A DNA stretch of 64,000 nt from an uncultured Planctomycetales bacterium (GCA_964384465.1 CAYLLT010000019.1:2826-66825); one strand, 5' to 3'. Shown: positions 23,012-59,082, counted from the stretch's first letter. Program-made: numbers and translations. The notes: generated from the sequence alone by a model not told the origin.

Positions 23012-23033
23012 TGCACCTGCCTCCAATTGATCC

Positions 23034-23092
23034 GAGCCGCGACCGTAAGGGAGCGCAATACAGAGACAACCGCTCCCTTGCGGTCGCGGCTC
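23034..23092. repeat. REP-like hairpin, family 'GAGCCGCGACCGTAAGGGAGCG' (copy 1)
   Basis: Arms 23034-23055 and 23071-23092 are complementary (22 bp, one G-U position) with a 15-nt loop. Same arm sequence as 34864-34885. Confidence 0.9.
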
Positions 23093-34798: not shown

Positions 34799-34840
34799 AC
34801 GGTCTCATACGGTTTTCGTTTTGAATCCGCGCGTGGGGTC

Positions 34841-34925
34841 TGATCCGAGCCGCGACCTGATCCGAGCCGCGACCGTAAGGGAGCGGTTTTCACTGCATTC
34901 CGCTCCCTTACGGTCGCGGCTCGGA
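34841..34925. repeat. REP-like hairpin, family 'GAGCCGCGACCGTAAGGGAGCG' (copy 2), with a 17-bp tandem half-copy
   Basis: Perfect 25-bp stem, 34861-34885 / 34901-34925. The extra tgatccgagccgcgacc at 34841-34857 duplicates 34858-34874. Confidence 0.92.
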
Positions 34926-43396: not shown

Positions 43397-43582
43397 CCCC
43401 TCATTAGACTCTTTTAGCTGTCCGGTTCAATCCTCCTTGACTCCGGCCGGTGGATGGGCTAAAACAAGGCAGCCTCCGATTGGGTCTTCAACGTCATTTT
43501 CAGGTTTGTGCTCATCGGGCGTCGTGTTTCTCCACGGCGGGCCGATCCGCATTCTTACCTTTCGACGGGGTTGGATTCAGGC

Positions 43583-44707
43583 ATGACGGCAGCGCTCGCA
43601 GAAGGCACGCTCGAACTACACGATAAGGGCTGGGGGTTCCTCCGCTCGGCCAAGCGCAATTACGCGGTCCATCCGACCGACCCGCTGGTGTCGGGCGACA
43701 TGGTCCGGCGGCTCGCCCTGCGCGGCGGCGAGAACGTCATCGGCCCCGCCCAGCGTTCCAATGGCCGGCAGGGCGGCCCGCAGTCCCAATTCTCACTGGC
43801 ATCCGTCGAGACCATCAACGGCCTGGTCCCTGACGTCTACGGCGAACTCAAACCCTTCGGCGAGCTGACGGTCGTCGATCCGCGGCAGCGACTGCGGTTC
43901 GAGATCCCCGGCGGGCCGCTCACCATGCGTGTCGTCGATCTGATGACGCCCATCGGCCGGGGCCAGCGCGGCCTCATCGCCGCCCCGCCGCGGACCGGCA
44001 AGACCATCCTGCTCCAGCAGATGGCCGCCGGCATCGCCGCCAATCACCCCGACATCTACATGATGGTGCTGCTCATCGACGAGCGGCCCGAAGAAGTCAC
44101 CGAGATGCGGCGGACGGTGCACGGAGAAGTCGTCGCCTCCAGCAACGATCAGGACATCACCAGCCACCTCCGCATTGCCCGCCTCATGATCGAAAAGGGC
44201 AAGCGCATGGTCGAGGCCGGCCAGCACATCCTCATCCTGCTCGATTCGCTCACGCGGCTCGGCCGGGCGTTCAACGCCGGCACGCGCTCTTCGGGCCGAA
44301 CCATGAGCGGCGGAATGGACATCCGCGCGCTGACCGAGCCCAAGGCCATCTTCGGCGCCGCCCGCAACATCGAGCACGGCGGATCGCTCACCATCATGGC
44401 CTCCGCCCTCATCGAGACCGGCAGCCGCATGGACGAGGTGATCTTCAACGAGTTCAAGGGCACCGGCAACATGGAGATCATGCTCACCCGCGAGCTGGCC
44501 AACCTGCGGATCTGGCCGTCGATGGACCTGAACCAGTCCGGCACCCGCAAGGAGGAGCTGCTCCTCGGCAAGGAGATTGTCGAAAAGATCTACCGCCTCC
44601 GCCGCCAGATCAGCCCCATGCCCATCAACAAGGCCATGGAAACCCTCCTCGAATCCCTCTCCAAGTACCCCAGCAACCAGGCCTTCCTCGACAGCATGGC
44701 CAAGTAA
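43583..44707 (+). CDS. rho: Transcription termination factor Rho (short N-terminus)
   Basis: Start ATG 43583. OB/RNA-binding region GTLELHDKGWGFLR. Walker A PPRTGKT, LLIDERPEEV, DSLTRLGRA, and the C-terminal Rho motifs. Confidence 0.92.
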   Translation: MTAALAEGTLELHDKGWGFLRSAKRNYAVHPTDPLVSGDMVRRLALRGGENVIGPAQRSNGRQGGPQSQFSLASVETINGLVPDVYGELKPFGELTVVDPRQRLRFEIPGGPLTMRVVDLMTPIGRGQRGLIAAPPRTGKTILLQQMAAGIAANHPDIYMMVLLIDERPEEVTEMRRTVHGEVVASSNDQDITSHLRIARLMIEKGKRMVEAGQHILILLDSLTRLGRAFNAGTRSSGRTMSGGMDIRALTEPKAIFGAARNIEHGGSLTIMASALIETGSRMDEVIFNEFKGTGNMEIMLTRELANLRIWPSMDLNQSGTRKEELLLGKEIVEKIYRLRRQISPMPINKAMETLLESLSKYPSNQAFLDSMAK

Positions 44708-44717
44708 CCTCCCCATT

Positions 44718-44834
44718 GTGGCACGGGCGTCCCGCCAGTGGTGTGGCGCTGAGGTCTGTCCGAACCCCGCACCCCAGTGAGAGGTCCCTGATCCGAGCCG
44801 CGAGCGCAAGCGAGCGGTCTTTCGCGCGCGACTC
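44718..44834. repeat. Degenerate REP fragments downstream of rho (one 'GTGGCACGGGCGTC' unit, one 'GATCCGAGCCGCGA' unit)
   Basis: gtggcacgggcgtc at 44718-44731 equals the reverse complement of the 53881-53903 unit over 14 nt. ctgatccgagccgcgagcgcaagcgagcg at 44789-44817 combines the 5' part of the 23031/34861 family with an AGCGCAAGCGAG core like that in 42132-42195. Confidence 0.6.
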
Positions 44835-46459: not shown

Positions 46460-46738
46460 TTATGCCTTTACTCCACTTCCTGTTTGCCTGGCCTGAAGCC
46501 AGCGCTCAAAGGACGCCTGGCTTTCGCTGGATTTTCTGCCGAGCAACAAGCCTTCAACGCCAATGTCCTCATCGAGGTCGGGCCAGTGAATACCGTAGCC
46601 GGCGCCGCTGATTTGAAAGTTCGCGCGCTCCGCGGGTGTGCCATAAGCCAGACGCGGATACCATCCGATGGGAACGGCTATCGTGCGCCCATCTTCGAGG
46701 TCAACCGACAGCATGTCATCCGTAACCGTAACACGCAT
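46460..46738 (-). CDS. DUF2442-domain protein
   Basis: Start ATG 46738. VTVTDDMLSVDLEDGRTIAVPIGWYPRL......ER.NF.ISGAGYGIHWPDLDEDIGVEGLL is the DUF2442 pattern. Confidence 0.7.
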   Translation of the reverse strand: MRVTVTDDMLSVDLEDGRTIAVPIGWYPRLAYGTPAERANFQISGAGYGIHWPDLDEDIGVEGLLLGRKSSESQASFERWLQARQTGSGVKA

Positions 46739-46742
46739 GATT

Positions 46743-47012
46743 CTAGTGAGCGCCGGGGTTGGGGTGACAGAAACGATCCCATTCATTTCTCAACGTCTCC
46801 ACATTGTCCCGAATCGTCCGCTCGATGTCTCGCAGTTCTTTACGACTGAAACCATGGTTCTCGGCCAAGGATACGTTCGGGTCAAGCCAAAACTTGGCGC
46901 TCATGTTCTCTCGGTCAACGTGCGTATGGCGCGGCTCACCGCAGTCGTACGAATAAATAGAAGTATAGACGATATGGCCCGATGCGTAAAGTGGTCGGCA
47001 TCTCAAATGCAC
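46743..47012 (-). CDS. DUF4160-domain protein
   Basis: GTG start at 47012 avoids overlap with the upstream gene. ...YSYDCGEPRHTHVDRENMSAKFWLDPNVSLAENHGFSRKELRDIERTIRDN matches the DUF4160 core (EP.H.HV....AKFWL.P). Confidence 0.65.
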   Translation of the reverse strand: MHLRCRPLYASGHIVYTSIYSYDCGEPRHTHVDRENMSAKFWLDPNVSLAENHGFSRKELRDIERTIRDNVETLRNEWDRFCHPNPGAH

Positions 47013-47029
47013 GGTATCGGGATTTCTAT

Positions 47030-48562
47030 TCAACTGCAACCGGGGGGTTGGTTGGCGCCGCTCAGGCAACGTAGAAACAGAGCGAAGTCGGCTTGATCGA
47101 CGATGCCGCTATTGTTCAGGTCGGCGTCCTCACATCCGGCGGCAACGGTTTGACCAATGGGCGTGAAACATGCCTGTACGATGCCGAAGTCACCCAGGTC
47201 CACGTCGCCATCCAGATCTATGTCAGCACTGTAGTTGGCGACACTGAACATCTCCGAGTCCGCACAGCCCTCGCTCGAACCGCCGGTTACGCTTGCCAGG
47301 GCACAGCGGAACCCGAGGTTGATGGCGCGGTAGTTCGGGCCGATGCCGTCGCTGCGGCTCGCGCAACGCGCGGCGGTGGCGCTGGCGTGCCACGAGCCGC
47401 CGCGAAGAACAATGGTCGTCCCGGTCGCCGGGCCGGTGGGGTTGTTGTACGGGCTGGTGCTGTAATAGGTGTCGCTGAAAAAGTCGTTGACCCGCTCCCA
47501 CACGTTGCCGGCCATGTCGTACAGGCCGTAGCCGTTGGGTGCGAAATACCCGACCGGATTGACATAGGGGTAATCGTCGGAGAATGCCGGGTGATAGCCC
47601 CGCGTCGGGCTGGTGTCATACGCAATATTGGCGTTGCTGCTGTAGTTGGCCCGTGCGTGCTGGATAGTGTCCGTATCCGACCACGGGAACCGATGCCCGG
47701 CCGCGCCGCCCCGGGCCGCCTTCTCCCATTCCGCTTCGCTTGGCAATCGGTAGCCGCTGACCGCGTAGTTGCAACTCCAGGTGGAAGTGTTGTAGCACAG
47801 CGGCTTGCCCTGCATGGCGCTGCGCCAGTTGGCGTAGGCTGCCGACCCGTAAAAACTCACCAGGTACATCGGGTAGTTTTCCCGGCCGAAAAGGACGGCG
47901 AACGTGCTGCCGTTCCAGGTGATTCGGCTCTGGACTCCGCCATCACCGGTCGTTGTGGCGCAATAGGCGTACGTGCCTGCGGCATTGTAGACCACGCCGT
48001 CGATCACCGTGATCTGGTTGCCCTGAGCCTTGGCCCAGTTCAGCGCGTCCACGTACTGCTGGTTGGTCACCAGTTTCTGGTCCAAAAAGAAGGCGCTGAC
48101 GTAGACCGCGTGGACGGGCAGCTCCCAAGAGCCCGCTTCGTTGAAGGTGTCGCCCATCTGGAACTCACCGGCGGGAACCAGAGCCATGCCGGGTGAAGGC
48201 CCGTCGTTGGCACAGACCCGAGCCATCAACGTGCCGGTTAGACCGGGCAGGTCCGCCAGGCAGTCCCAGACGATCAGCTTGCCCGTACCCGGTGTGATGC
48301 CGGAGCCGATCGCCCCAGTGAAGGTTTGTGCGGGTACCGTCCAGGTCTGCCCGCCGTCGTCGCTGACCAGCACAGAGATCGCGGAGGCATCGCCGTCGGC
48401 GTCGGCCAGGTCGTAGCCGATGTCCACCATCTTGGTGCCATCGGTGCGCTGGCTGGCGGTGACATTGCTGACCACCGGCGCCGAATTCGCCCAAACCGCG
48501 GGTCCGGCCACGAGCATCCAAACCATGCCCATCAGCAGGCCGCACGGCTTCCCGCAGCTCAT
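47030..48562 (-). CDS. Secreted FGE/SUMF1-family protein with an N-terminal beta-sandwich region and a C-terminal dockerin-like module
   Basis: Signal peptide. GYRLPSEAEWEKAARGG, RGGSWHA...RCASRS. C-terminal DLDGDVDLGDF...DLNNSGIVDQADFALFLRCLSG. Confidence 0.8.
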   Translation of the reverse strand: MSCGKPCGLLMGMVWMLVAGPAVWANSAPVVSNVTASQRTDGTKMVDIGYDLADADGDASAISVLVSDDGGQTWTVPAQTFTGAIGSGITPGTGKLIVWDCLADLPGLTGTLMARVCANDGPSPGMALVPAGEFQMGDTFNEAGSWELPVHAVYVSAFFLDQKLVTNQQYVDALNWAKAQGNQITVIDGVVYNAAGTYAYCATTTGDGGVQSRITWNGSTFAVLFGRENYPMYLVSFYGSAAYANWRSAMQGKPLCYNTSTWSCNYAVSGYRLPSEAEWEKAARGGAAGHRFPWSDTDTIQHARANYSSNANIAYDTSPTRGYHPAFSDDYPYVNPVGYFAPNGYGLYDMAGNVWERVNDFFSDTYYSTSPYNNPTGPATGTTIVLRGGSWHASATAARCASRSDGIGPNYRAINLGFRCALASVTGGSSEGCADSEMFSVANYSADIDLDGDVDLGDFGIVQACFTPIGQTVAAGCEDADLNNSGIVDQADFALFLRCLSGANQPPGCS

Positions 48563-48664
48563 GGCATCGATCCCTTCCCGAAATACGCGGTTCCCTCTGG
48601 AGGATCAGAAGGTCATGGAAGCATTATACCGCGCCCGGTTCACGATGAAAACGTAGACAGCGTC

Positions 48665-48685
48665 TCACGCCAGCTTCCACGGCGA
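48665..48685. repeat. Direct repeat copy 1 (non-coding duplicate of the oxidoreductase 3' end)
   Basis: Identical 21-mer; on the minus strand it would read SPWKLA*. 24/26 identity when extended to 48690. Confidence 0.95.
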
Positions 48686-48692
48686 GCGATGC

Positions 48693-51600
48693 TCAGCTCA
48701 TCGACAGATCGTCATAGACCTTGAGGACCAGGTCCCCGGCCTCGCCGGGCGTCCACGGCGATTCGCCGCTCTGGAGGTGCGGGTCGTCCATGTGTCCCGT
48801 GCCGGTGAACTGCGTCAGCATGTACTCGGCGTCGTCACGTTCGATGCCATAGAGGTGGAAGAAGGCGGCGTCGAGTTCGGCCCGGAGTCGGGCGCGCTCG
48901 GCTTCCTTCCAGATATGCACGCCGTCGCCCCGCGAGCCTTTGAATTCGCAGGCCTTGGCCAGCGGGATCATGTCCTCGGCGGTGCAGGAGAGTTTCAGCA
49001 CGCGCTCGCTGATCCAGTGTTCGAGGGTTTCACGCTTGGACCACGGGCACTTGTCGGCATAGGTATCAGGCGGGAGCGTGGGGAGCTGCTCGACGATGAA
49101 GAAGTTGAGCGTGATGCCGCCGATCTTCTGCCGCGTCACGTAGTCGAAGATGAACGAGTTGACGTTGCCGAGAAAGCAGCTCGCGCGGCGCGGCTCTACG
49201 TCGGTGAGCATGAGCACGAGCTTGTTGGTCACGGCGGATCGGGGCACGAACGACGCGATCATGGTCCGCTCGTTGGTCGGGCTGGTGATGTCCTTGAAGC
49301 CCATGAACCACAGCTTGTTGCCGGGCTGTGCTTCCATCGCCTTCTCGACCGCCGCTTCCTCGACCCACCACCGCGGCAGTACGGCGTACTCGGGGTTGGC
49401 GTGTTGCGTGTCGTAGGTCTTGGTCTTCTGTCCCTGTCGGACCCAGTTGTCATCCTCCACGATCACGCTTGCGGCCCGGTGGTCGAAGGCCTGGACCATC
49501 TTGGCCTCGTAGAGCGGTAACGCCCGCTTCTTGCCGCGGGTGTAGATGTTGCCGTTGCCGCTGAGCGTGTACTTCTTGCGTTCCCAGACCTTGGCCTCGG
49601 TGAAGTGCTCAGCGTCGTTGGTTTGGTGAAACATCGTAAAGAACTTGATCCCCCACGGGTTGCCGCCTTGCCTGCGGTGCTCGTCGATCAGGATCGGTAC
49701 GCGCTTGTAGATGGCTCGGGTCAAAGCCGCGTCGCGGCGGGTGCGGAAGATGGGGCAGGTCTTCGTGTTGGGGTTGAGCAGCTTCATGTCCGCCGCGGTG
49801 AGGGGGATGTGGCGTTTCTTGTTCGTGTCCGCTACGTCCTCGATCTCGTGGGCGAAGAACACGAAGTCCGCCTGATTGGTTTTGCGGTCTTTCCCGCCGA
49901 ACACCAGCGCTGTGAACTTGAACGAGCGGTGAACGTCCTCGAAGTAAGGCTTCTTGTTCTCGAAGTCGTAGAGCGAGACAAGAGCCTTGTCGTCCATCAA
50001 CGTATTGAAGAACTCCTTGGTCGTGTCGTCGGTGGCGATGCCTGAGGGGACCAGGAGGCCCACCAACCCGTCGGGGGCGACGATGGAGCGGGCCAGTTCG
50101 GCAAAGAGCATGTAGAGGTTCACGTCCCCCTTGCCGGTGAGCGGGTAGTCGCCGCTTTTGCGGGCGTGGGTGAGCATGCGGTCGGCGTTCGCCAAAGCCG
50201 TCTCGTACGCCGCGAAAAGTTCCGGGTTGTTCTTGGGCAATACGGCGATGCGTTTGCGGCGGTCGGCTGCGCTGACGGCCTGCGCGGTCTCGGGGGCTAG
50301 GAGAGAGAAGAACTCGCGCTCCTGGACCTTGACCCGCTCCCACGGCGGGTTGCCGATGACGCAGGTGAACCCGCCCGGCCCACCTTTGGCGAAGATGTCC
50401 GGAAAAGCCTCGGCCCAAACTAGGGCCTTGGGGTCCACGGCGGGATCGGTCACCAGGCTGTTGCCGCACACGATGTGCCTGGAAAGGTCCGCGAGCGTCT
50501 TGCCTCGACGGGCCGAGCGTATCCAGAGGGCAAGCTGCGTGATCTCCACCGCCTCCGCCGAGAGGTCCACGCCGTAGAGGTTGTGGTTCAGGATGAAATC
50601 GGGGATGGCGTCTTCGAGCTTGGCAATATCGGCGGCGGGCATCCCGGCGCCCGCCAGGCCGTGGACCACGCTCTTGTAGTGGGCGTCGAGGGCGTCGTAG
50701 GCGCGGATGAGGAACGCGCCGCTCCCGCACGCCAGATCGCAGACGGTGATAGCCTTGAGGCATTCCAGGCACGCGGACCAATAGGCCAGGAGTCGCTTGG
50801 GGTCCTGGTCCTTGCGGGCTTCGGGATCGACCTTGTGCTTCCCTTGGAGAGCCTTAAAGCGTTCGGCGACGATCACGTCAACGGTGCGTTCGACGATCAG
50901 CCCGGTGAAGGCGGGCGGGGTGTAGTAGATGCCGAAGCGCTTGCGCTGGGCGCTCTTGGGCATCTTCGACAGGGCGGCGTCCCCGTTGGCTTGCTCGCCC
51001 TTGGCGACCTTGACCTTGCCGCGCTGGGTGGTCGTCGCATCGTTGGGCACAGGGTCGCCGTTCTCCACGCCGCTTTTGAGGGCGAAGAGGCCGCCGACGC
51101 GGAGCTTTTCCAATTCGGTGATGGAGCGCTCGAACAGGTGCCCCAGGACTTCGACGTTGACTTCTTCGGAGAAGTCATACTTACCGAAGCCCATGAAGCC
51201 CGCCGTCCAGGGATCGTCCTCCAGCTCAAGGTTGTCGATCTCGTCGTCATGCTTGAAGAGGTTGCCGTTGTAGCCCACTTCGAGGCCGACGTTCTTACCG
51301 CCCCGGTCCACTTCGAAGAAGAGCGCGAGGAAATTCTGCCAGCGTGGATTGGTGGCCCTCTGGAACGGGTTGATGACGGACCCCGCGCGTTCGAGACAGT
51401 TCTCGCGGATCAGCTCGCGGTCTTCGCAGAAGGCGATGAAGATGATGCGGTCCAGGAGTCTTTGTGCGATACGGATGGCGGCGTCCAGCGACTTGCCCCG
51501 TTCTTTGTGTAAATGCTCGATGAGGCGGAGCCGCTGGAACTGGTACGACTTGTACAAGTCGTCGCCGACATCCTTCTGGCGTATCTCGGTGTTGTGCAGC

Positions 51601-52340
51601 AGTTCAAGAGCACGGGGCCTCTGCCCGAGTTTGGACGGCAGCAGCCCGCCGCGCTCGAAGAGCAGGTAGAACTCGTTGAAGCGGTCGCGGTCGCGGAGTT
51701 CCTGGAGCGTGAACTCCTCGTAGGCCAGCGAGCCCTTGTCCTTGTTGTAGAGGCGGATGGTCGAGAAGTTCGACACGATGCCCCACGGGCAGCCGGGGAG
51801 TGCGTTGAGATACTCCCAGCACTGCCGAACGGCGGTGCGGCCGTTGGAGCGGTCCCGGTCCAAATCGGTCTGGGCGTCTTTGAGCTCGACGACCACGGTC
51901 GGTACGCGCGCGGTGGGGAATTCGCCCAGCGCTGCGTCCGCCGTACCCACGCCCGAGACCGTGTACTTGTGCTCCAGTTGCCACGCCGCAGGGCTGGTCG
52001 TCTTCAGTTCGTAACCGAGTCCCTTCCCGAACAGTTGATCGAGGAACTGCGTGTCGATGGAGGTTTCTTTGTGCTTGACGAGCTCCCCGGAGGATTCAAG
52101 GTCCGCCCAGCGGACGGCGATATCGTACGCACGATCCTGGGCGGCGCCGGCAAGTTGCTGGCTTTTCGCCGCCTCTCTGAGGTACTTGGGGATGAACAGC
52201 GCTCGCTGCCGGCGAATCCGCCGTGCGAGAACTTGCTCTTGGTGCTCGTAGAGGCTGGGTCCGTCCCGTGCTCGGGCTTTGCGCTTGGCCATGCGTGCTC
52301 CGCTCGAGTCCATCCTTGCAATCTTCAGATCATAACTCAT
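48693..52340 (-). CDS. Single-polypeptide restriction-modification-type enzyme: N-terminal PD-ExK-like (HSDR_N/MmeI-like) region + gamma-class N6-adenine DNA methyltransferase + large C-terminal region
   Basis: ORF opens at TTG 52364; first ATG is 52340. ADAALGEF...VVVELKD (ELK at 51879-51887). MTase motif I DLACGSGAFL (50709-50738) and motif IV NPPW (50340-50351). C-terminal motifs LNPNTKTCPIFRTRRDA and LYEAKMVQAFDHR. Confidence 0.75.
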   Translation of the reverse strand: MSYDLKIARMDSSGARMAKRKARARDGPSLYEHQEQVLARRIRRQRALFIPKYLREAAKSQQLAGAAQDRAYDIAVRWADLESSGELVKHKETSIDTQFLDQLFGKGLGYELKTTSPAAWQLEHKYTVSGVGTADAALGEFPTARVPTVVVELKDAQTDLDRDRSNGRTAVRQCWEYLNALPGCPWGIVSNFSTIRLYNKDKGSLAYEEFTLQELRDRDRFNEFYLLFERGGLLPSKLGQRPRALELLHNTEIRQKDVGDDLYKSYQFQRLRLIEHLHKERGKSLDAAIRIAQRLLDRIIFIAFCEDRELIRENCLERAGSVINPFQRATNPRWQNFLALFFEVDRGGKNVGLEVGYNGNLFKHDDEIDNLELEDDPWTAGFMGFGKYDFSEEVNVEVLGHLFERSITELEKLRVGGLFALKSGVENGDPVPNDATTTQRGKVKVAKGEQANGDAALSKMPKSAQRKRFGIYYTPPAFTGLIVERTVDVIVAERFKALQGKHKVDPEARKDQDPKRLLAYWSACLECLKAITVCDLACGSGAFLIRAYDALDAHYKSVVHGLAGAGMPAADIAKLEDAIPDFILNHNLYGVDLSAEAVEITQLALWIRSARRGKTLADLSRHIVCGNSLVTDPAVDPKALVWAEAFPDIFAKGGPGGFTCVIGNPPWERVKVQEREFFSLLAPETAQAVSAADRRKRIAVLPKNNPELFAAYETALANADRMLTHARKSGDYPLTGKGDVNLYMLFAELARSIVAPDGLVGLLVPSGIATDDTTKEFFNTLMDDKALVSLYDFENKKPYFEDVHRSFKFTALVFGGKDRKTNQADFVFFAHEIEDVADTNKKRHIPLTAADMKLLNPNTKTCPIFRTRRDAALTRAIYKRVPILIDEHRRQGGNPWGIKFFTMFHQTNDAEHFTEAKVWERKKYTLSGNGNIYTRGKKRALPLYEAKMVQAFDHRAASVIVEDDNWVRQGQKTKTYDTQHANPEYAVLPRWWVEEAAVEKAMEAQPGNKLWFMGFKDITSPTNERTMIASFVPRSAVTNKLVLMLTDVEPRRASCFLGNVNSFIFDYVTRQKIGGITLNFFIVEQLPTLPPDTYADKCPWSKRETLEHWISERVLKLSCTAEDMIPLAKACEFKGSRGDGVHIWKEAERARLRAELDAAFFHLYGIERDDAEYMLTQFTGTGHMDDPHLQSGESPWTPGEAGDLVLKVYDDLSMS

Positions 52341-52394
52341 CGCAGCAAGAATGTCGGCAGTCAACCTACCGGGCCCATGAATTGCGCACCAGCG

Positions 52395-52415
52395 TCACGC
52401 CAGCTTCCACGGCGA
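52395..52415. repeat. Direct repeat copy 2 (last 6 codons plus stop of the oxidoreductase gene)
   Basis: Identical 21-mer; encodes ...SPWKLA* of the 52395..53759 CDS. Confidence 0.95.
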
Positions 52416-53759
52416 ACGGTACTCGTACGTGAGCAACTTGTTGGCGTCGGGGTCGTTGGTGACTTGTTCCTTTTCGGCGTCCCAGGCGAGGTAGCGTTTG
52501 CGGTCCAGGGCGAGGTTGCCGAGGAGGGTGGCGGTGGTGGAGCGGTGGCCGGTTTCGACGGGGCAGTTGCATGGTTTGCGGGTCTTCACGCAATCCAGAA
52601 AGTTGCGGGTGTGGAGGACGACATCGTCGTTCTTGCCGGTTTCGACCAGGGCTTTGCCGGCGGGGCGCGTCGCGCGGAGCTGGGCGCTGACTTCCTTCCG
52701 GCGCAGCGGGCTGAGCGCGGGCTTGACCTCGGTGCGGACATCTTGCGGCACGATCTCGATCCGGCCGCCGCGATAGTACAGCGTGCCTTCGGTGCCTCGG
52801 AATTCGACCTCGGCACCCTTGGCGTCCGCGGGGGCGTCGTTGGCGTTGAACTGTGAGAACGTCACTAAAGTGTCGCCGGGATAATCCCAGATCACTTCCA
52901 TCGTGTCCGGCACCTCGCGGTTGTCATCGACGGCATAACGACCGCCGGCCGCGAACACGCCTCGCGGCGCGTCCTGCCCCAGCGCCCAGTGGATCAGGTC
53001 CAGGTAGTGCGTGCCCATATTCGTTAACTGCCCGCCCGAGTATTCGCGGAACCAGCGGAACTTGTAGAAACAGCGGTTCTCGTTGTAGGGCACCTTCCGC
53101 GCCGGTCCGAGCCAAAGATCCCAATCGAGTTCGGCCGGCGGGGAGCTGTCGGCCGGCTTGCCGTTACCCATCGGCGATTCGTTGGAGAGATGAAAGCAGC
53201 GGCAGACGGTCACCTTGCCGATTGCACCGGACTGGATCAGCTCGACGATTCGCCGGCAGATCGGGCTCGACCGCCGCTGCACGCCCATCTGCGTCACGCG
53301 GCTGTGCTCCTTGGCCGCGTGGATCATCTTTCGCCCTTCGGCGATCATCAGCGAGAGCGGCTTCTCGACGTAGACGTCCTTGCCGGCGGCGCAGGCGTCC
53401 ACGAACTGAAGCGCGTGCCAGTGGTCGGGCGTGGCGATCACCACGGCGTCAACATCTTTGCGGTCAAGAACCTTTCGGTAGTCTTTGGTGGTGAAGGGGT
53501 CGCCGCCGACCTTCTGCTTCGCGAACTCGACGTACGGCGAATACACATCGCACACCGCGGTGAATACGACGTCTTGATGCGGTTGAAACCCATCGATCAA
53601 CTGGTCGCCGCGATTGCCCACGCCGATGATGCCGAGCTGCACGCGCTCGTTGGCCGGGAACGCAGACAATGCTGATCGTCTGCTGGCCGCTGCGGCTCCC
53701 GCTGCGAGCACGCCGGCCGAGAAGTTGCGTCGCGTGATTCGCGTGATTCTGCTGGACAT
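52395..53759 (-). CDS. Gfo/Idh/MocA-family oxidoreductase with a twin-arginine signal
   Basis: Start ATG 53759 after GGAGGGAAGTT. MSSRITRITRRNFSAGVLAAGAAAA (Tat-like). Rossmann QLGIIGVGNRG. The ORF-track N-terminal extension crosses REP units. Confidence 0.85.
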   Translation of the reverse strand: MSSRITRITRRNFSAGVLAAGAAAASRRSALSAFPANERVQLGIIGVGNRGDQLIDGFQPHQDVVFTAVCDVYSPYVEFAKQKVGGDPFTTKDYRKVLDRKDVDAVVIATPDHWHALQFVDACAAGKDVYVEKPLSLMIAEGRKMIHAAKEHSRVTQMGVQRRSSPICRRIVELIQSGAIGKVTVCRCFHLSNESPMGNGKPADSSPPAELDWDLWLGPARKVPYNENRCFYKFRWFREYSGGQLTNMGTHYLDLIHWALGQDAPRGVFAAGGRYAVDDNREVPDTMEVIWDYPGDTLVTFSQFNANDAPADAKGAEVEFRGTEGTLYYRGGRIEIVPQDVRTEVKPALSPLRRKEVSAQLRATRPAGKALVETGKNDDVVLHTRNFLDCVKTRKPCNCPVETGHRSTTATLLGNLALDRKRYLAWDAEKEQVTNDPDANKLLTYEYRSPWKLA

Positions 53760-53847: not shown

Positions 53848-53903
53848 CACGGGCGAGACGCCCTTGCCACAAAACACAACCACGGGCGAGACGCCCGTGC
53901 CAC
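53848..53903. repeat. Two tandem 23-nt palindromic units CACGGGCGAGACGCCC(T/G)TGCCAC, 33 bp apart
   Basis: 53848-53870 and 53881-53903. Each unit contains the stem CACGGGCG/CGCCCGTG. Confidence 0.9.
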
Positions 53904-54702
53904 ACGCTGTGAAATGGATGAACTTCGGCAGAGCCGACTGAGGTATCTTTCTTTTTTACATGAGGATACGGATGGCAACTTCGATCATTGCTGGAGACGG
54001 TCGGGAGGTTTTCACAAGATGATACGGTCAGTAAAAAAGGCGTGCGGCACCCTGTACAAATTTGGCGCGGTCAAGGGTGCCGCAGCGAGTGGAAGACTGG
54101 TTTTTAAAAGTTCGGCAACCACCCCGTCAAGCTAATCACTTTATCGAGGTAAGCCGCCGACACCTTTACATTATATCAATCAGATTCGGCAAGATCACGC
54201 ACGTTTTTGCTTGCCGATCAATAAATTCTAGGCACCTCTCCGTGAGAAATCGAATCCATTTCAAATGCCGAATTATTGAGGTCCGCTCCGCTTCACGTCG
54301 TCGGATTCTTGAACGCCCAAGCCACGATCCGCGCCGCGTGAACCCGCCAGATCAGCGACCCTGTGCCGGAGCAATACCACTGATCTAACGCCGAAGCCCA
54401 TGCAAAGCCTATGCCACACAGCTTCCGCAATACGATGTTCAACTTAAGTCATTTAATATCAATTGTTTACATGTATTATGCCGCTTTAGGAGATCTCCTC
54501 CACGATGTTGCAAAAAAACAACACTTGGACACATAAGGTTATACGGAGCAATAGCTTGAAAAGTTTCCGGGGGCTTGCAGACGATGCGTGCCCCTACTCG
54601 GTGAACAGTGAAAACGCCGCCGCCTACGGGGCAGTGGCACGTGGCGGCAGGGTATAGAAATAACGCAGGGCGGGCAGTAACCCACGCCCGATCGGATCGA
54701 AT

Positions 54703-55017: not shown

Positions 55018-56883
55018 ATGCACTCGCTTATTTTGCGCACCGCCGCCGTCTCTGCCCTCTCGATCTCCTGGCTGCTCGTGGCCCCTGCCGCTGCCCTGCC
55101 GCTGGGCACGGCTTTCACCTACCAGGGCCGGCTCAAGAGCGGCGGCAGCCCGGCCAACGACAGCTACGACCTGCAGTTCACGCTCTACGATGTGGAAACG
55201 GTCGGCAGCATCGTCGCCGGGCCGGTCTGCGCCGACAACGTGAACGTCGCGGATGGCCTGTTCACCGTGCCGTTGGATTTCGGAGCGGCGGCCTTCAATG
55301 GCGACGCCCGCTGGCTGGACATCGGCGTGCGGGCGGACGCGACGGCGGGAAACTGCGGCGCCGGAGCCTATACGCCGCTGGTGCCGCGTCAGAAGTTGAC
55401 CGGCGTGCCCTATGCCCTCTTCTCCACCGCTCCCTGGGCCACCAGCGGGGCCAACATTTCGAACACCAACACCGGCAACGTCGGTATCGGCACCAGCGCG
55501 CCGATGTCACCTCTGCACGTGACCACGGCCGGAACACCGGCGGTGTTCGCCGAGACTACCGGTGGCGCGGGAACCAACTTCGGCGTGATCGGCAGCAGCG
55601 CCAGCACCAGCGGACGCGGCGTGCTGGGCACGGTGGGTGCGGCTTCGGGCGCGACCTACGGCGTGGTCGGCGAAAGTCAGAGCGCCATCGGCACCGGCGT
55701 GCGCGGCTGGGCCAAAGACACCACCGGACAGAATTATGGTGTGTACGGCCAGACCAGCAGTGTCAATGGCACCGGCGTCTACGGCCTCGCGCTGGCCAAC
55801 ACCGGCACGAATTATGGTGTGTACGGCCAGACAGCCAGCACGAATGGCCGCGGCGTGTACGGCTTCGCCACCGCCGCCAGCGGGACAACCTACGGCGTCC
55901 ACGGCCAAAACAACAGCACGGATGGCCGCGGCGTTTTCGGGGAAGCCACCGCCGCCAGCGGGACGAACTACGGCGTGTACGGCAGGAGCGACAGCCCCCA
56001 GGGATATGGCGTGTATGGCGAGAGCGCCGACAACGCCGGCGTGTACGGCATCGCCACGGCCACCAGCGGCACCAACTACGGCGGTTTCTTTTGGTCCGAC
56101 AGCACCTCCGGTCGCGGCGTCAACGGCACCGCCAACGCCGCCACCGGCTCCACTGTCGGCGGCATATTCCAGAGTTCAAGCACGTCCGGCATCGGCGTCA
56201 ACGGCATCGCCAGCGCCCTCAGCGGCACCACCTACGGCGGCCGGTTCCTCAGTGCCAGCACTTCCGGCACCGCCGTACTCGGGTATGCCACCGGCCTCAG
56301 CGGCGCCAACTACGGCGTGTACGGCCAAACCAACAGCCCGGACGGCTACTCCGGCTATTTCCTCAACGGACTGATCTACTTGGGCGGCGATGTCGGCATT
56401 GGCGTCAGCAACCCGTTATTCCGGCTTCACCTCAGTCAGAACTCCGCCGCCAAGCCCACCAGCAACACGTGGACCATCTCGTCGGACCGCCGCCTCAAGA
56501 AGAACATCACGCCCATCGACGGCGCGCTGGATCAACTTCTGCAATTGCACGGCGTGACCTATCAATGGATTCATCCTGAGGATCAAGGCGACATGGCCGG
56601 AACCTACACCGGCATGATCGCGCAGGATGTGGAGAAAGTATTTCCCGAATGGATCAGCGAAGACAAGGACGGCTACAAGCACTTGACCGTCATCGGCTTC
56701 GAGGGTCTGGCCGTCGAAGCCCTGCGGCAACTTCGGACGGAGAAGGATTCACAGATACGGTCGCAACAACGTGAGATCGAAGTCCAGCGTGCGGCAATCG
56801 ACTTGCTCCGCGAGCAGGTCCAGCGCCTCCAAGCGACCGTGCAGGCGTTGGCTGAGGATATCCACAACCAAGGAAATCGCTGA
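55018..56883 (+). CDS. Secreted tail-fibre-like repeat protein with a C-terminal peptidase-S74 intramolecular chaperone (autoprocessing) domain and coiled coil
   Basis: Signal peptide. N-terminal domain shared with the next gene. ~26-aa G-x-NYGVYGQ-x-S-x-x-G-x-GVYG repeats (about 55560-56340). SDRRLKKNITPIDGALDQLLQLHGVTYQW (from ~56479) is the S74 chaperone signature. Confidence 0.8.
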   Translation: MHSLILRTAAVSALSISWLLVAPAAALPLGTAFTYQGRLKSGGSPANDSYDLQFTLYDVETVGSIVAGPVCADNVNVADGLFTVPLDFGAAAFNGDARWLDIGVRADATAGNCGAGAYTPLVPRQKLTGVPYALFSTAPWATSGANISNTNTGNVGIGTSAPMSPLHVTTAGTPAVFAETTGGAGTNFGVIGSSASTSGRGVLGTVGAASGATYGVVGESQSAIGTGVRGWAKDTTGQNYGVYGQTSSVNGTGVYGLALANTGTNYGVYGQTASTNGRGVYGFATAASGTTYGVHGQNNSTDGRGVFGEATAASGTNYGVYGRSDSPQGYGVYGESADNAGVYGIATATSGTNYGGFFWSDSTSGRGVNGTANAATGSTVGGIFQSSSTSGIGVNGIASALSGTTYGGRFLSASTSGTAVLGYATGLSGANYGVYGQTNSPDGYSGYFLNGLIYLGGDVGIGVSNPLFRLHLSQNSAAKPTSNTWTISSDRRLKKNITPIDGALDQLLQLHGVTYQWIHPEDQGDMAGTYTGMIAQDVEKVFPEWISEDKDGYKHLTVIGFEGLAVEALRQLRTEKDSQIRSQQREIEVQRAAIDLLREQVQRLQATVQALAEDIHNQGNR

Positions 56884-56994
56884 TGAAAAGTCCCATCGTT
56901 GTCGCGAGCCTCGCCGTGGTGAGCGCGGCATAACTGACATTCGCGAGCCCGCCCTGATGTTGCCAGTGCTTGCTTTCAAGAAAGGATGGTACCC

Positions 56995-59082
56995 ATGAAC
57001 GCTCTCAGAACATTGCTGTGGATCGCAACGATTACAGTGCTGAACGGCGGCGCGCTGGCCCAGCCTACGCCGCTCAGCACCGCCGTCACTTACCAGGGCC
57101 AGCTCAAACAGAGCGGCAGCCCGGTCAGCAGCACGTGTGATCTGCAATTCAGTTTGTGGGACGATCCGACCAGCACCAATCCGGCCAACCAGATCGGCGG
57201 CACGCTGACCTTCAGCGGGGGCAACGCGGTCAGCATCAGCAACGGCCTGTTCACCGTCCAGCTCGATTTCGGCGCTGCGGCTTTCACCGGCGACGCCCGC
57301 TGGCTGCAAGTCGGCGTGGCCTGCCCGTCGGGCGGGCCTTTCACCACGCTCGGACCGCGCCAACAGGTTCTGGCCGCGCCGTATGCGCTGTTTGCCCGCA
57401 CCGCGCCGTGGAGCGGCCTGTTGGGCGTTCCCGCCGGCTTCGCCGACGGCATCGACGATGTGGGCGGACTGGTGCTGCCGTTCAGCGCCAGCGCTGCCAG
57501 CTCGACCGCGCTGTTTGCCATTACCCAGACCGGCGACGGGCCGGCCGCCCTTTTCAAGGTCCAACCGCAGCCCGAGCCGCCCATGCCCATGCCGGCCATC
57601 GAGGCGATCAGCGCAATCAGCGCGCCGGCGATCAAGGCCACGAACACGGGCGGCGGATCGGCCCTCGATGCGGTTCGGACCATCGTCGGCCCGCCGATAG
57701 CGCCGGTCATCCGCGCCACCAACAACGGCAGCGGTTCGGCGCTTGAAGCCGTATCTCAGGGTGTCCCAGACCCGGTCGATGCCCCCACTATTCAAGCCAC
57801 CAATCTGGGCGACGGCCCGGCCCTCGATGCGGTCCGGGGCCACGTCGGTCCGCCGGAAGCGCCGGTCATCCGCGCGACCAACGACGGAGGCGGCCAGGGC
57901 ATTCAGGCGACGAATAACGGCAGTGCCGCGACGATCGAGGCCACCAACAACGGCGACGGCCCGGCGGCGGTGTTCATCATCGATCCGGAGCTTACCCCGG
58001 CGCCGGCGATCCGGGCTACGAATACGCACCTGGGCTCCGCGGCGCTTTTCGAGAAGATCGGGGGCATCGACCCGGGTTTCTGTCCGACCATCGACGCGAC
58101 CAACAAGGTGGGCGGTTCGGCGATTGAAGCCGTATCCCAGGGTGTCCCAGACCCGATCGAAGCCCCCACGATTCAAGCCACCAATCTTGGTGCTGGGCCG
58201 GCCATCGACGCGGTTCGGACTATCGTCGGCCCGCCGGATGCGCCGGTCATCCGCGCCACCAACAACGGCAGCGGTTCGGCGATTGAAGCCGTATCTCAGG
58301 CTATCCCAGACCCGATCAGTGCCCCCACGATTCAAGCCACCAATCTTGGCGGCGGGCCGGCCCTCGATGCGGTTCGGATCAACGTCGGCCCGCCGTCAGC
58401 GCCGGTCATCCGCGCCACCAACACCGGCCTGGGCATGGCCGTCGAGGCGGCCAGCGCGGACAGCGCCGCGACGATGCGGGCCACGAACACCGGCAGCGGA
58501 CCGGCCCTCGAGGCGGTTCGGAACAACGTCGGCCCGCCGTCAGCGCCGGTCATCCGCGCCACCAACAACGGCCTGGGCATGGCCGTCGAGGCGGCCAGCG
58601 CGGACAGCGCCGCGACCATGCGGGCGACGAACACGGGCGGCGGACCGGGCGTGTACGCCTCGGCCACCAGCGGCAACGCCATCCACGGCATCAGCACCGC
58701 CGGCTCGGCGGGCTATTTCGAGGGCAACGTGCACCTCACCGGCAACCTGACCAAGGCCTATACCACCGGCACCTCCAGCCGGGCCGCGCCGATCGCCTAC
58801 GCGAGCATCGATGGCCCGACCGGCATGGTGACCGCGGGCACACCCAACGTGAGCAGTGTGTGGGACAGCGCGAACCTGCGCTATGTGATCACCATCGCCG
58901 GGGAAGCCTACTCCTCCACCGGCTACATCACCACGGTCACGCCGATCGCCGGCGCCGCGCCGGAAGCCCTGTTCGCGGTCACCAGCAGCGGGTCTGGACA
59001 GCTCCGCGTTCGTATCATGAGCCCGCCGTCGGGAACCACCGGTTTGCAGAGGCCATTCCAATTCATCACCTACAAGCCGTAA
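56995..59082 (+). CDS. Secreted repeat protein, paralogous in its N-terminal domain to 55018..56883; no chaperone domain
   Basis: Signal peptide (start ATG 56995 or 56986). N-terminal TAVTYQGQLKQSGSPVSSTCDLQFSLWDD...GLFTVQLDFGAAAFTGDARWLQVGV parallels TAFTYQGRLKSGGSPANDSYDLQFTLYD...GLFTVPLDFGAAAFNGDARWLDIGV. Has 48- to 53-aa repeats (PVIRATNNGSGSA.EAVSQ...). Confidence 0.75.
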   Translation: MNALRTLLWIATITVLNGGALAQPTPLSTAVTYQGQLKQSGSPVSSTCDLQFSLWDDPTSTNPANQIGGTLTFSGGNAVSISNGLFTVQLDFGAAAFTGDARWLQVGVACPSGGPFTTLGPRQQVLAAPYALFARTAPWSGLLGVPAGFADGIDDVGGLVLPFSASAASSTALFAITQTGDGPAALFKVQPQPEPPMPMPAIEAISAISAPAIKATNTGGGSALDAVRTIVGPPIAPVIRATNNGSGSALEAVSQGVPDPVDAPTIQATNLGDGPALDAVRGHVGPPEAPVIRATNDGGGQGIQATNNGSAATIEATNNGDGPAAVFIIDPELTPAPAIRATNTHLGSAALFEKIGGIDPGFCPTIDATNKVGGSAIEAVSQGVPDPIEAPTIQATNLGAGPAIDAVRTIVGPPDAPVIRATNNGSGSAIEAVSQAIPDPISAPTIQATNLGGGPALDAVRINVGPPSAPVIRATNTGLGMAVEAASADSAATMRATNTGSGPALEAVRNNVGPPSAPVIRATNNGLGMAVEAASADSAATMRATNTGGGPGVYASATSGNAIHGISTAGSAGYFEGNVHLTGNLTKAYTTGTSSRAAPIAYASIDGPTGMVTAGTPNVSSVWDSANLRYVITIAGEAYSSTGYITTVTPIAGAAPEALFAVTSSGSGQLRVRIMSPPSGTTGLQRPFQFITYKP

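What the first reader, a model, noticed from the sequence alone, without database searches (positions are those of the whole stretch)
48665..52415. Solitary RM-type gene bracketed by a perfect 21-bp direct repeat that duplicates the 3' end of the neighbouring gene
The 21-mer TCACGCCAGCTTCCACGGCGA occurs at 52395-52415 and again at 48665-48685.
- At 52395-52415 it encodes the last six codons plus stop (SPWKLA*) of the Gfo/Idh/MocA oxidoreductase.
- At 48665-48685 it lies 7 bp past the stop of the 1,2xx-aa RM-type ORF and is non-coding.
- The match extends to 24/26 beyond the perfect core.
- The 3,709 bp between the copies contain only that one ORF, in the same orientation as the oxidoreductase and starting 30 bp after its stop.

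This is the geometry expected for insertion of a single RM gene with a long target-site duplication. That mode of RM mobility has been inferred from genome comparisons in Helicobacter and other bacteria. I see no transposase, integrase or IS ends, so the insertion mechanism is unexplained.
Basis: partly seen in the sequence, partly recalled or inferred. Interest (0 to 1): 0.8.

Follow-up and report, generated by a model that had tools for sequence, protein, structure and literature searches.

The report
Restriction gene flanked by duplicated gene end
A single restriction-modification gene in a planctomycete genome sits between two copies of the last few codons of its neighbour gene, which is the footprint expected if the gene was inserted there, a known way for such genes to move, but no related genome without the insert was available to prove it.

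Summary
The 21-mer occurs exactly twice in the window, at 48665-48685 and 52395-52415, with none expected by chance. With gaps the repeat extends to about 35-37 bp (32 identical columns; the differences are three transitions and one GA slippage indel).

The upstream copy is the native, family-conserved end (YEYRSPWKLA*) of a Gfo/Idh/MocA oxidoreductase. The downstream copy is a non-coding relic (E-H-R-SPWKLA*) 7 bp past the stop of an intact 1,199-aa Type IIG restriction-modification gene.

The best reading is a one-off insertion of a promoter-plus-gene cassette with duplication of the target. This is the known "insertion with long target duplication" class (Nobusato 2000; Furuta 2010), in which repeats often span a neighbour's stop codon.

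It is not proven. The nearest non-self relatives are only about 75-83% identical, so no empty site could be found. GC content and codon usage are host-like. Seven homologous restriction-gene loci show no flanking repeats, and 152 orthologous oxidoreductase loci show no second copy of their own gene end. No integrase, transposase or terminal inverted repeats are present.

Verdict: a plausible new member of a known kind, of modest interest.

The parts
52390..52424 (-). Upstream direct-repeat copy. It is the native 3' end of the oxidoreductase (codons E-Y-R-S-P-W-K-L-A, stop at 52395-52397) plus 5 bp (CGCTG) past the stop. The perfect 21-bp core is 52395-52415.
   Evidence: The C-terminus YEYRxPWKL is conserved in 26 orthologs examined.
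48658..48694 (-). Downstream direct-repeat copy, a non-coding relic of the oxidoreductase gene end. It reads E-H-R-S-P-W-K-L-A-stop. Its perfect core is 48665-48685. It lies 7 bp past the RM stop and 13 bp (48652-48664) upstream of the FGE -35 box.
48693..52292 (-). Type IIG restriction-modification gene (1,199 aa). It has an N-terminal D119...E136-L-K138 nuclease motif, methyltransferase motif I (D519-x-ACGSGAFL) and motif IV (N648-PPW).
   Evidence: Pfam Eco57I 2.4e-21 and MmeI_Mtase 8e-9. PADLOC REase_MTase_IIG 4e-65. Family-invariant residues are present. PDB profile hit to MmeI 3e-7. Fold matches to BrxX/PglX, DrdV, BpuSI and MmeI. Start and stop agree with homologues.
52293..52394 (-). 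102-bp region upstream of the RM gene, carried inside the repeats. It holds a sigma-70-like promoter (CCGACA-17-TATGAT, 52357-52329) and a GGAG ribosome-binding site.
   Evidence: Promoter scan. The TTATNAT box and GGAG are conserved upstream of RM homologues in other genomes.
52395..53759 (-). Gfo/Idh/MocA oxidoreductase with a Tat signal (454 aa). This is the target gene, and the duplication left it intact.
   Evidence: P0121.
47030..48562 (-). FGE-sulfatase/dockerin gene downstream of the insert. Its promoter (TTTTCA-17-TATAAT, 48651-48623) is intact just beyond the relic copy.
   Evidence: The upstream region aligns with the 71% ortholog locus L176 to within about 25 bp of the repeat.

Best explanation
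A compact cassette was inserted at the very end of the oxidoreductase gene. The cassette consists of the gene's own promoter, the Type IIG RM open reading frame and at most 7 bp of 3' sequence.

The event duplicated a stretch of target DNA: a 21-bp perfect core, probably about 35 bp originally. The duplicated stretch covers the last 6-9 codons, the stop codon and a few bases beyond.

The upstream copy completes the oxidoreductase, so the gene stayed intact. The downstream copy became a non-coding relic in front of the undisturbed FGE promoter.

This is the geometry of 'insertion with long target duplication', which is thought to involve widely staggered target breaks, joining of the insert ends and fill-in.

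**Shown:**
- the repeat itself;
- which copy is the original;
- the tight cassette boundaries;
- the absence of mobility genes.

**Inferred:**
- that the RM cassette itself was what inserted;
- the break-and-fill-in mechanism.

The host-like codon usage together with the nearly undecayed repeat suggests a move within the genome or from a close relative, not a distant transfer.
For: - **Repeat is exact and unique.** It has only two copies in the window and none expected by chance. It is the only flanking repeat above the null: 21 nt, against a maximum of 15 in shuffles.
- **Extended similarity is non-random**.
- **Polarity.** The coding copy ends in the family-conserved YEYRxPWKL. The other copy has H in place of the conserved Y and lies in another frame, after the RM stop.
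- **Tight boundaries.** The RM start and stop are native by comparison with 40 homologues, so the insert ends 7 bp or less after the stop.
- **Own promoter.** The cassette carries a promoter-like site whose -10 box is conserved in homologue loci.
- **FGE promoter preserved** and conserved with L176.
- **No mobility genes.** None were found among the genes between rho and the oxidoreductase or among the three predicted genes beyond the oxidoreductase. No terminal inverted repeats were found.
- **Single-copy in orthologs.** Near-matches to the 21-mer in 2.2 Mb of related loci occur only once per locus, at oxidoreductase 3' ends (L001, L005, L101). None of 152 ortholog loci carries RM or a second gene end.
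- **Variable interval.** In L008/L083 the oxidoreductase-to-rho interval holds only a DUF4145 ORF, so this interval varies between genomes.
- **Left junction reproduced** in an independent assembly.
- **Literature.** RM genes, including Type IIG, flanked by 24-423-bp target duplications that often span a stop codon are documented in PMC2853133.
Against: - No empty site was found. The nearest non-self relatives are 74-75% (oxidoreductase), 75% (RM) and 83% (FGE) identical.
- The contig carrying the 83% FGE ortholog could not be fetched.
- GC content (0.627 vs 0.623) and codon usage of the RM gene are host-like. Only the tetranucleotide distance is high (97.5th percentile), and that could reflect a single long gene.
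- Seven distinct homologous RM loci have no flanking repeats above chance.
- The varied contexts of RM homologues are weak evidence for mobility, because the control genes (oxidoreductase, FGE) also lack conserved neighbours.
- All differences between the repeat copies lie at the repeat ends. Under uniform decay of a 35-bp duplication this has P of about 0.026. The pattern resembles an att core or microhomology-guided joining more than a plain fill-in duplication.
- The perfect core (21 bp) is below the 30-bp cut-off used in one of the published screens.
Confidence: 0.55

Rival explanations
1. Integration by recombination at a short shared sequence, not by a staggered-cut duplication. In this reading a circular RM cassette already carried an oxidoreductase-end-like segment. 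It recombined with the chromosomal gene end inside the 21-bp identical core. This could have happened through a site-specific recombinase acting in trans (a CIME-like element lacking its own integrase) or through short-homology Campbell-type recombination.
For: - The repeat has a perfect core flanked by imperfect similarity on both sides: 3 transitions and one 2-bp indel, all outside the core. This is the pattern typical of att sites or of crossover between diverged homologous sequences.
- Integration into the 3' end of a gene with restoration of that end is typical of integrative elements (established knowledge).
Against: - No integrase or recombinase gene lies in or near the insert.
- None of 152 orthologous oxidoreductase loci has an insert, RM gene or second gene end at this site, so there is no recurrent target use.
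- None of 7 RM homologue loci lies next to an oxidoreductase or carries such a segment.
Confidence: 0.15
2. The duplication was made by an earlier insertion at this spot, and the RM gene later replaced the earlier cargo. This would be an allelic substitution within a variable islet. The repeats would then mark an insertion hot spot but not the mobility of this RM gene.
For: - The oxidoreductase-to-rho interval is variable and rich in accessory genes. In the window it holds RM, FGE, a DUF4160/DUF2442 pair and a DUF1559 protein. In L008/L083 it holds a single DUF4145 ORF.
- Furuta et al. describe a 'substitution' class and chance insertion between existing repeats.
Against: - The cassette fits the repeats tightly: 7 bp or less at the 3' end and 102 bp containing its own promoter at the 5' end. 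No leftover foreign sequence is visible.
- This reading needs two events where one suffices.
Confidence: 0.12
3. The downstream copy is a remnant of a local duplication and deletion of the oxidoreductase, or of a tandem paralog. Most of that second copy was later deleted, and RM mobility played no part.
For: - The relic reads as a degenerate oxidoreductase C-terminus, E-H-R-SPWKLA-stop.
- Gfo/Idh/MocA genes are highly paralogous in this phylum (about 5,000 hits at E<=1e-100).
Against: - Similarity stops abruptly about 9 bp upstream of the core, at the RM stop.
- Perfect 21-bp DNA identity is not expected between old paralogs. Orthologs differ at synonymous sites.
- This reading needs a tandem duplication plus at least two precise deletions to put the RM gene between the copies.
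- No other paralog fragment is present in the window.
Confidence: 0.08
4. The repeat is a chance match, a member of a REP family, or an assembly artefact.
For: The genome does carry REP-like palindromes elsewhere in the window.
Against: - Zero matches were expected in shuffles. The null maximum for flanking repeats was 15 nt, against 21 observed.
- The sequence differs from the REP families and has only two copies.
- The folding energy is not different from shuffled sequence.
- The left junction was reproduced in an independent assembly.
Confidence: 0.02

Closest known systems
Insertion of RM genes with long target duplication (Nobusato et al. 2000, Gene 259:99; Furuta, Abe & Kobayashi 2010, PMC2853133)
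   Same: - An RM unit without any mobility gene is flanked by direct repeats longer than 20 bp.
- One repeat copy is part of the neighbouring gene and spans its stop codon, so the target gene stays intact.
- Type IIG examples are on record: Acidovorax 57/64 and Thermus thermophilus 47/47.
- Short cases are on record: Haemophilus 24/25 and Clavibacter 29/29.
   Different: - The perfect core here is only 21 bp, or about 32/37 with gaps.
- No empty-site genome is available.
- The host is an uncultured planctomycete (Phycisphaerae-like), a phylum absent from the published list.
- The differences between the copies are confined to the repeat ends.
Type IIG/IIL single-chain RM enzymes (MmeI 5HR4, DrdV 7LO5, BpuSI 3S1S)
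   Same: - It is a single polypeptide.
- It has an N-terminal PD-ExK-type nuclease motif.
- It has gamma-class N6-adenine methyltransferase motifs (xCGSGxF, NPPW) and a C-terminal region.
- It matches Pfam Eco57I and MmeI_Mtase, and PADLOC REase_MTase_IIG.
   Different: - It is longer, at 1,199 aa.
- The single sequence has no hit in the PDB. Only a profile hit to the MmeI methyltransferase core was found.
- MmeI_N scores below the Pfam threshold.
- The C-terminal half is unusually conserved across homologues and was modelled with low confidence.
BREX methyltransferase PglX/BrxX (8C45, 9EWZ)
   Same: It is the best structural match of the model and has a similar size and methyltransferase core.
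   Different: - NCBIfam BREX scores are far below their cut-offs (52 vs 500 bits).
- No BREX partner genes are nearby.
- The protein has a nuclease-type D...ELK motif.
Integrase-less integrated elements flanked by att repeats (CIMEs), and integrative elements that target gene 3' ends
   Same: Direct repeats with an identical core and imperfect flanks sit at the 3' end of a gene, which is restored.
   Different: - No integrase is present.
- The insert is a single gene.
- The target is not reused in 152 orthologous loci.
IS1630 (IS30 family) transposition with 19-26-bp target duplications
   Same: The length of the target duplication is similar.
   Different: There is no transposase and there are no terminal inverted repeats.

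Membership tests
[quoted passage not shown] | RM gene(s) flanked by direct repeats longer than about 20-30 bp | tested here: met
   The core is 21/21 perfect, 27/30 ungapped and about 32/37 gapped. This exceeds the >20-bp screen. It meets the >30-bp criterion of PMC2853133 only with the gapped extension.
[quoted passage not shown] | The repeated sequence is present once at an empty site in a related genome, with both flanks aligned | not testable with these tools
   No relative closer than 75-83% protein identity was found, apart from the same strain, which is also filled. There is partial support only: orthologs carry the gene end once.
[quoted passage not shown] | No transposase, integrase or other mobility gene in or next to the insert | tested here: met
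   Pfam and PADLOC scans of the insert, of the genes between rho and the oxidoreductase, and of the three predicted genes beyond the oxidoreductase found none. No terminal inverted repeats were found.
[quoted passage not shown] | The repeat is not a multi-copy genomic repeat | tested here: inconclusive
   There are only 2 copies in the 64-kb window. In 2.2 Mb of related loci, near-matches occur only at oxidoreductase ends. The rest of the genome was not available.
Type IIG RM enzyme | Nuclease and gamma-class N6-adenine methyltransferase in one polypeptide | tested here: met
   D119...E136-L-K138, motif I and NPPW are all invariant in the family alignment. Pfam, PADLOC and PDB-profile hits agree, as do the fold matches. 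Activity was not tested.
Type IIG RM enzyme | Sequence-specific cleavage at a fixed distance, and a methylated motif | not testable with these tools
   This needs biochemistry or methylome data.
BREX system (PglX) | Co-located BREX partner genes (brxA/B/C, pglZ, brxL) and a PglX-level model score | tested here: not met
   NCBIfam BREX_1_MTaseX scores 52 bits against a cut-off of 500. The neighbouring genes are an oxidoreductase and an FGE gene.
Site-specific integrative element or CIME | att repeats plus a cognate recombinase (in cis or trans), with recurrent use of the same target | tested here: not met
   No recombinase was found among the Pfam-scanned genes around the insert; the rest of the window's genes were not scanned for recombinases. 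No second occupied site was found in 152 ortholog loci. A recombinase acting in trans from elsewhere in the genome cannot be excluded.

The most novel reading that the evidence does not exclude
The Type IIG cassette could be an autonomous mobile unit that needs no transposase or integrase. Its own nuclease would make the widely staggered target breaks. Nucleases of the MmeI-like class cut about 20 bp from the recognition site, so the roughly 21-bp duplication would reflect the enzyme's reach. The repeats would also allow precise excision. If this were shown, it would give a mechanism for the long-unexplained 'insertion with long target duplication'.
Probability: 0.05. Interest if true: 0.75.

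Novelty: new member of a known kind. Interest (0 to 1): 0.3.

Why it matters
If confirmed, this extends RM gene mobility without a transposase, by target duplication, to Planctomycetota.

It also gives an unusually clean case:
- the insert is a single Type IIG gene;
- the boundaries are tight, with 7 bp or less after the stop;
- the cassette carries its own promoter;
- the target gene is left intact.

Such a case could be used to test how these insertions arise and whether the repeats allow precise loss. As it stands, it is a good candidate example of an already described phenomenon, not a new kind of element.

Tried and rejected
1. **Empty-site search with the oxidoreductase.** I searched GTDB species genomes and JGI metagenomes. 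The best hits were 74% identical and not syntenic, apart from a weak oxidoreductase-to-rho linkage in L008/L083.
2. **Protein searches for all three genes**. The only close relative is the same strain (P0241/L161), and it is filled. The contig carrying the 83% FGE ortholog (P0243) is not on record. The 71% ortholog (L176) has a different upstream gene.
3. **Family-wide signature.** Seven distinct RM homologue loci have no flanking direct repeats above chance.
4. **Recurrent target.** 152 ortholog loci have no second copy of their own gene end.
5. **Foreign composition.** GC content and codon usage are host-like.
6. **Structured RNA or terminator role for the repeat.** The folding energy is no better than that of shuffles. 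The one terminator-like hit is below the chance expectation.
7. **Terminal inverted repeats of the insert.** None were found.
8. **tRNA target.** There are no tRNA genes in the window, L176 or L083.
9. **Links to plasmids or phages.** Only distant homologues (27-41% identity) were found.
10. **Look-ups of the window's own proteins.** Exact look-ups for FGE and RM are not on record.
Full report
**Observation.**
- The 21-mer TCACGCCAGCTTCCACGGCGA occurs at 48665-48685 and 52395-52415 and nowhere else in the window, even with three mismatches allowed. No match was expected in 100 shuffles.
- Both genes lie on the minus strand. The copy at 52395-52415 encodes S-P-W-K-L-A-stop of a 454-aa Tat-signal Gfo/Idh/MocA oxidoreductase (52395-53759).
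- The copy at 48665-48685 starts 7 bp after the stop codon (48693-48695) of a long ORF and is in a different frame.
- The two copies are 3,709 bp apart.
With a 2-bp gap, five more bases (CGCTG on the minus strand) match beyond the stop codon.
- On the minus strand the two copies read GAGTACCGT-[core]-CGCTG and GAGCATCGC-[core]-GA-CGCTG.
- Sampling random position pairs from the window gives P = 0.016 for 6/9 or better and P = 0.008 for the shifted 5-mer, with a joint probability of 1.4e-4. All three mismatches are transitions (P = 0.03). The indel is one unit of a GAGA dinucleotide repeat.
- I therefore take the duplicated tract to be about 35-37 bp with a perfect 21-bp core.

**What the genes are.**
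- The long ORF is a Type IIG restriction-modification fusion. It matches Pfam Eco57I (2.4e-21), MmeI_Mtase and N6_Mtase and PADLOC REase_MTase_IIG (4e-65).
- BREX and MADS models score far below their cut-offs.
- In an alignment of 22 homologues the window protein keeps every invariant residue. These include D119...E136-L-K138 (a PD-ExK-type nuclease motif), motif I (DxACGSGAFL) and motif IV (NPPW).
- A profile search of the PDB finds MmeI (3e-7), then BREX PglX.
- A moderate-confidence AlphaFold model (pLDDT 60.6) matches BrxX/PglX, DrdV, BpuSI and MmeI.
- The homologue N-termini (MAKRK...) and the database gene call (P0001, 1,199 aa) place the start at ATG 52292, not at the TTG at 52364. The C-terminus has the native length.
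- So the unit between the repeats is 102 bp of upstream DNA, the ORF, and 7 bp.
- The upstream DNA holds one of only two sigma-70-like sites found in 48400-52600 (CCGACA-17-TATGAT, 52357-52329). Its -10 box (TTATNAT) and a GGAG are conserved upstream of homologues in other genomes.
- The second promoter-like site (TTTTCA-17-TATAAT, 48651-48623) serves the downstream FGE-sulfatase/dockerin gene. It aligns with the upstream region of a 71% ortholog (L176) to within about 25 bp of the repeat.

**Which copy is the original.**
- All 26 oxidoreductase orthologs inspected end in Y-x-Y-R-x-P-W-[KRQ]-L or a close variant. They differ from the window at synonymous sites.
- The coding copy is therefore native.
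- The other copy reads E-H-R-SPWKLA-stop, with H replacing a conserved Y. It is a non-coding relic of the same gene end.
- Near-matches to the 21-mer in 2.2 Mb of fetched loci occur only at oxidoreductase 3' ends, once per locus (L001, L005, L101, and L161 of the same strain).
- The repeat is unrelated to the REP-like palindromes that the window also contains. It has no folding energy beyond that of shuffled sequence.

**Search for an empty site.**
- Scans of GTDB species genomes and JGI metagenomes with the oxidoreductase gave at best 74% identity. The large protein database gave 75%.
- The one close sequence (P0241, 452/454 identical) lies on a 2.8-kb JGI contig that is 99.9% identical to the window. 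It runs from the oxidoreductase into the RM gene, so it is a filled site from the same strain, assembled independently.
- The best FGE relative is 83% identical, but its contig could not be retrieved. The 71% relative has a different upstream gene.
- None of 160 oxidoreductase loci carries the RM or FGE gene next to it.
- None of 152 loci has a second copy of its own gene end at 4 mismatches or fewer in 24. Of these, 89 have at least 4 kb downstream. The same scan recovers the window's relic copy as a positive control.
- The only shared synteny is with L008/L083 (oxidoreductase 69%, rho 80%, convergent). There the interval holds a single DUF4145 ORF. In the window it holds RM, FGE, a DUF4160/DUF2442 pair and a DUF1559 protein.
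- The interval is therefore variable, but at this divergence the junction cannot be resolved.

**Is the RM family mobile in this way?**
- Homologues at 65-75% identity are abundant in Planctomycetota.
- Seven distinct loci all show a solitary gene among unrelated housekeeping neighbours, with no mobility genes.
- None of these loci has a flanking direct repeat above the shuffled expectation. The longest are 9-12 nt, against 21 nt in the window.
- The differing contexts are weak evidence, because the control genes also lack conserved neighbours.
- The GC content of the insert (0.627) equals the window mean (0.623), and its codon usage is among the most host-like of 38 ORFs. Its tetranucleotide distance is at the 97.5th percentile, which may simply reflect a single long gene.
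- Distant homologues (27-41% identity) occur on plasmids and phages.

**Interpretation.**
- Chance, a REP family and assembly artefact are excluded.
- The simplest account is one insertion of the promoter-plus-ORF cassette at the end of the oxidoreductase, with duplication of about 21-35 bp of target. This keeps both the oxidoreductase and the FGE promoter intact.
- This is the published class 'insertion with long target duplication'. That class covers RM genes of all types, including Type IIG, flanked by repeats of 24 to more than 400 bp with no mobility genes. [quoted passage not shown]
- An almost undecayed repeat combined with host-like codon usage fits a recent move within the genome or from a close relative.
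- One feature does not fit a plain fill-in duplication. All four differences lie at the ends of the repeat (P about 0.026 under uniform decay). This could mean error-prone or microhomology-guided joining at the junctions. It could instead mean recombination at an att-like core, which is the main rival. That rival is weakened by the absence of a recombinase and of any reuse of the target.
- Substitution of earlier cargo at a hot spot, and a duplication-deletion relic, are less parsimonious but remain open.

**Verdict.** This is a candidate new member of a known kind, and its interest is modest until an empty site or an excision product is seen.

Noticed in passing
window 5445-5471, 44713-44742, 53848-53871, 53881-53904: There is a REP-like palindrome family (CACGGGCGAGACGCCCGTGCCACA / TGTGGCACGGGCGTCCCGCC). 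Inverted copies at 44717 and 53879 bracket the whole 9.1-kb rho-to-oxidoreductase interval (D17, D19, I4, I6). This is probably a coincidence of a multi-copy repeat, but it was not tested.
   Followed up: no
window 13434-13468, 23019-23092, 34839-34925, 44787-44821: There is a second repeat family that forms perfect 26-nt hairpins (TCCGAGCCGCGACCGTAAGGGAGCGG ... CCGCTCCCTTACGGTCGCGGCTCGGA), mostly between genes (D6, D9, I1, I2).
   Followed up: no
window 46460-47069 (minus strand): An overlapping pair of small genes, DUF4160 and DUF2442, sits in the lowest-GC stretch of the interval (0.556). It lies between the FGE gene and the DUF1559 gene and is another accessory module in the same variable interval.
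   Followed up: partly
window 55018-59082 (plus strand): Two large proteins are rich in repeats, with 78-300-nt internal DNA repeats. The first has a Peptidase_S74 (endosialidase chaperone) domain, which is typical of tail-spike-like or surface fibre proteins.
   Followed up: no
L008 11667-12377 / L083; window 43508-44707: The oxidoreductase and rho are convergent neighbours in both the window and a 69%/80% relative. In the relative the interval holds a DUF4145 protein, a domain often linked to restriction systems. This hints at a defence or accessory hot spot. There was no PADLOC hit.
   Followed up: partly
P0001 family alignment A3 (window 48693-52292): This Type IIG family is unusually conserved over its whole length, with 70% mean column identity in 22 sequences. 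The conservation includes the C-terminal half, where target-recognition domains normally vary. There are more than 1,300 homologues, and the best 120 listed are nearly all from planctomycete or unnamed metagenomic sources.
   Followed up: no
L176 400-450: A tRNA-like 3' fragment (GGTTCGATTCCCG...) lies upstream of the FGE ortholog, but ARAGORN calls no tRNA gene. It may be a tRNA remnant or an att scar in that genome.
   Followed up: partly
window 48563-48664 and 52293-52394: The gap from each repeat copy to the next start codon is exactly 102 bp in both cases (relic copy to FGE ATG; coding copy to RM ATG). The two segments are otherwise dissimilar, so this is probably a coincidence.
   Followed up: no
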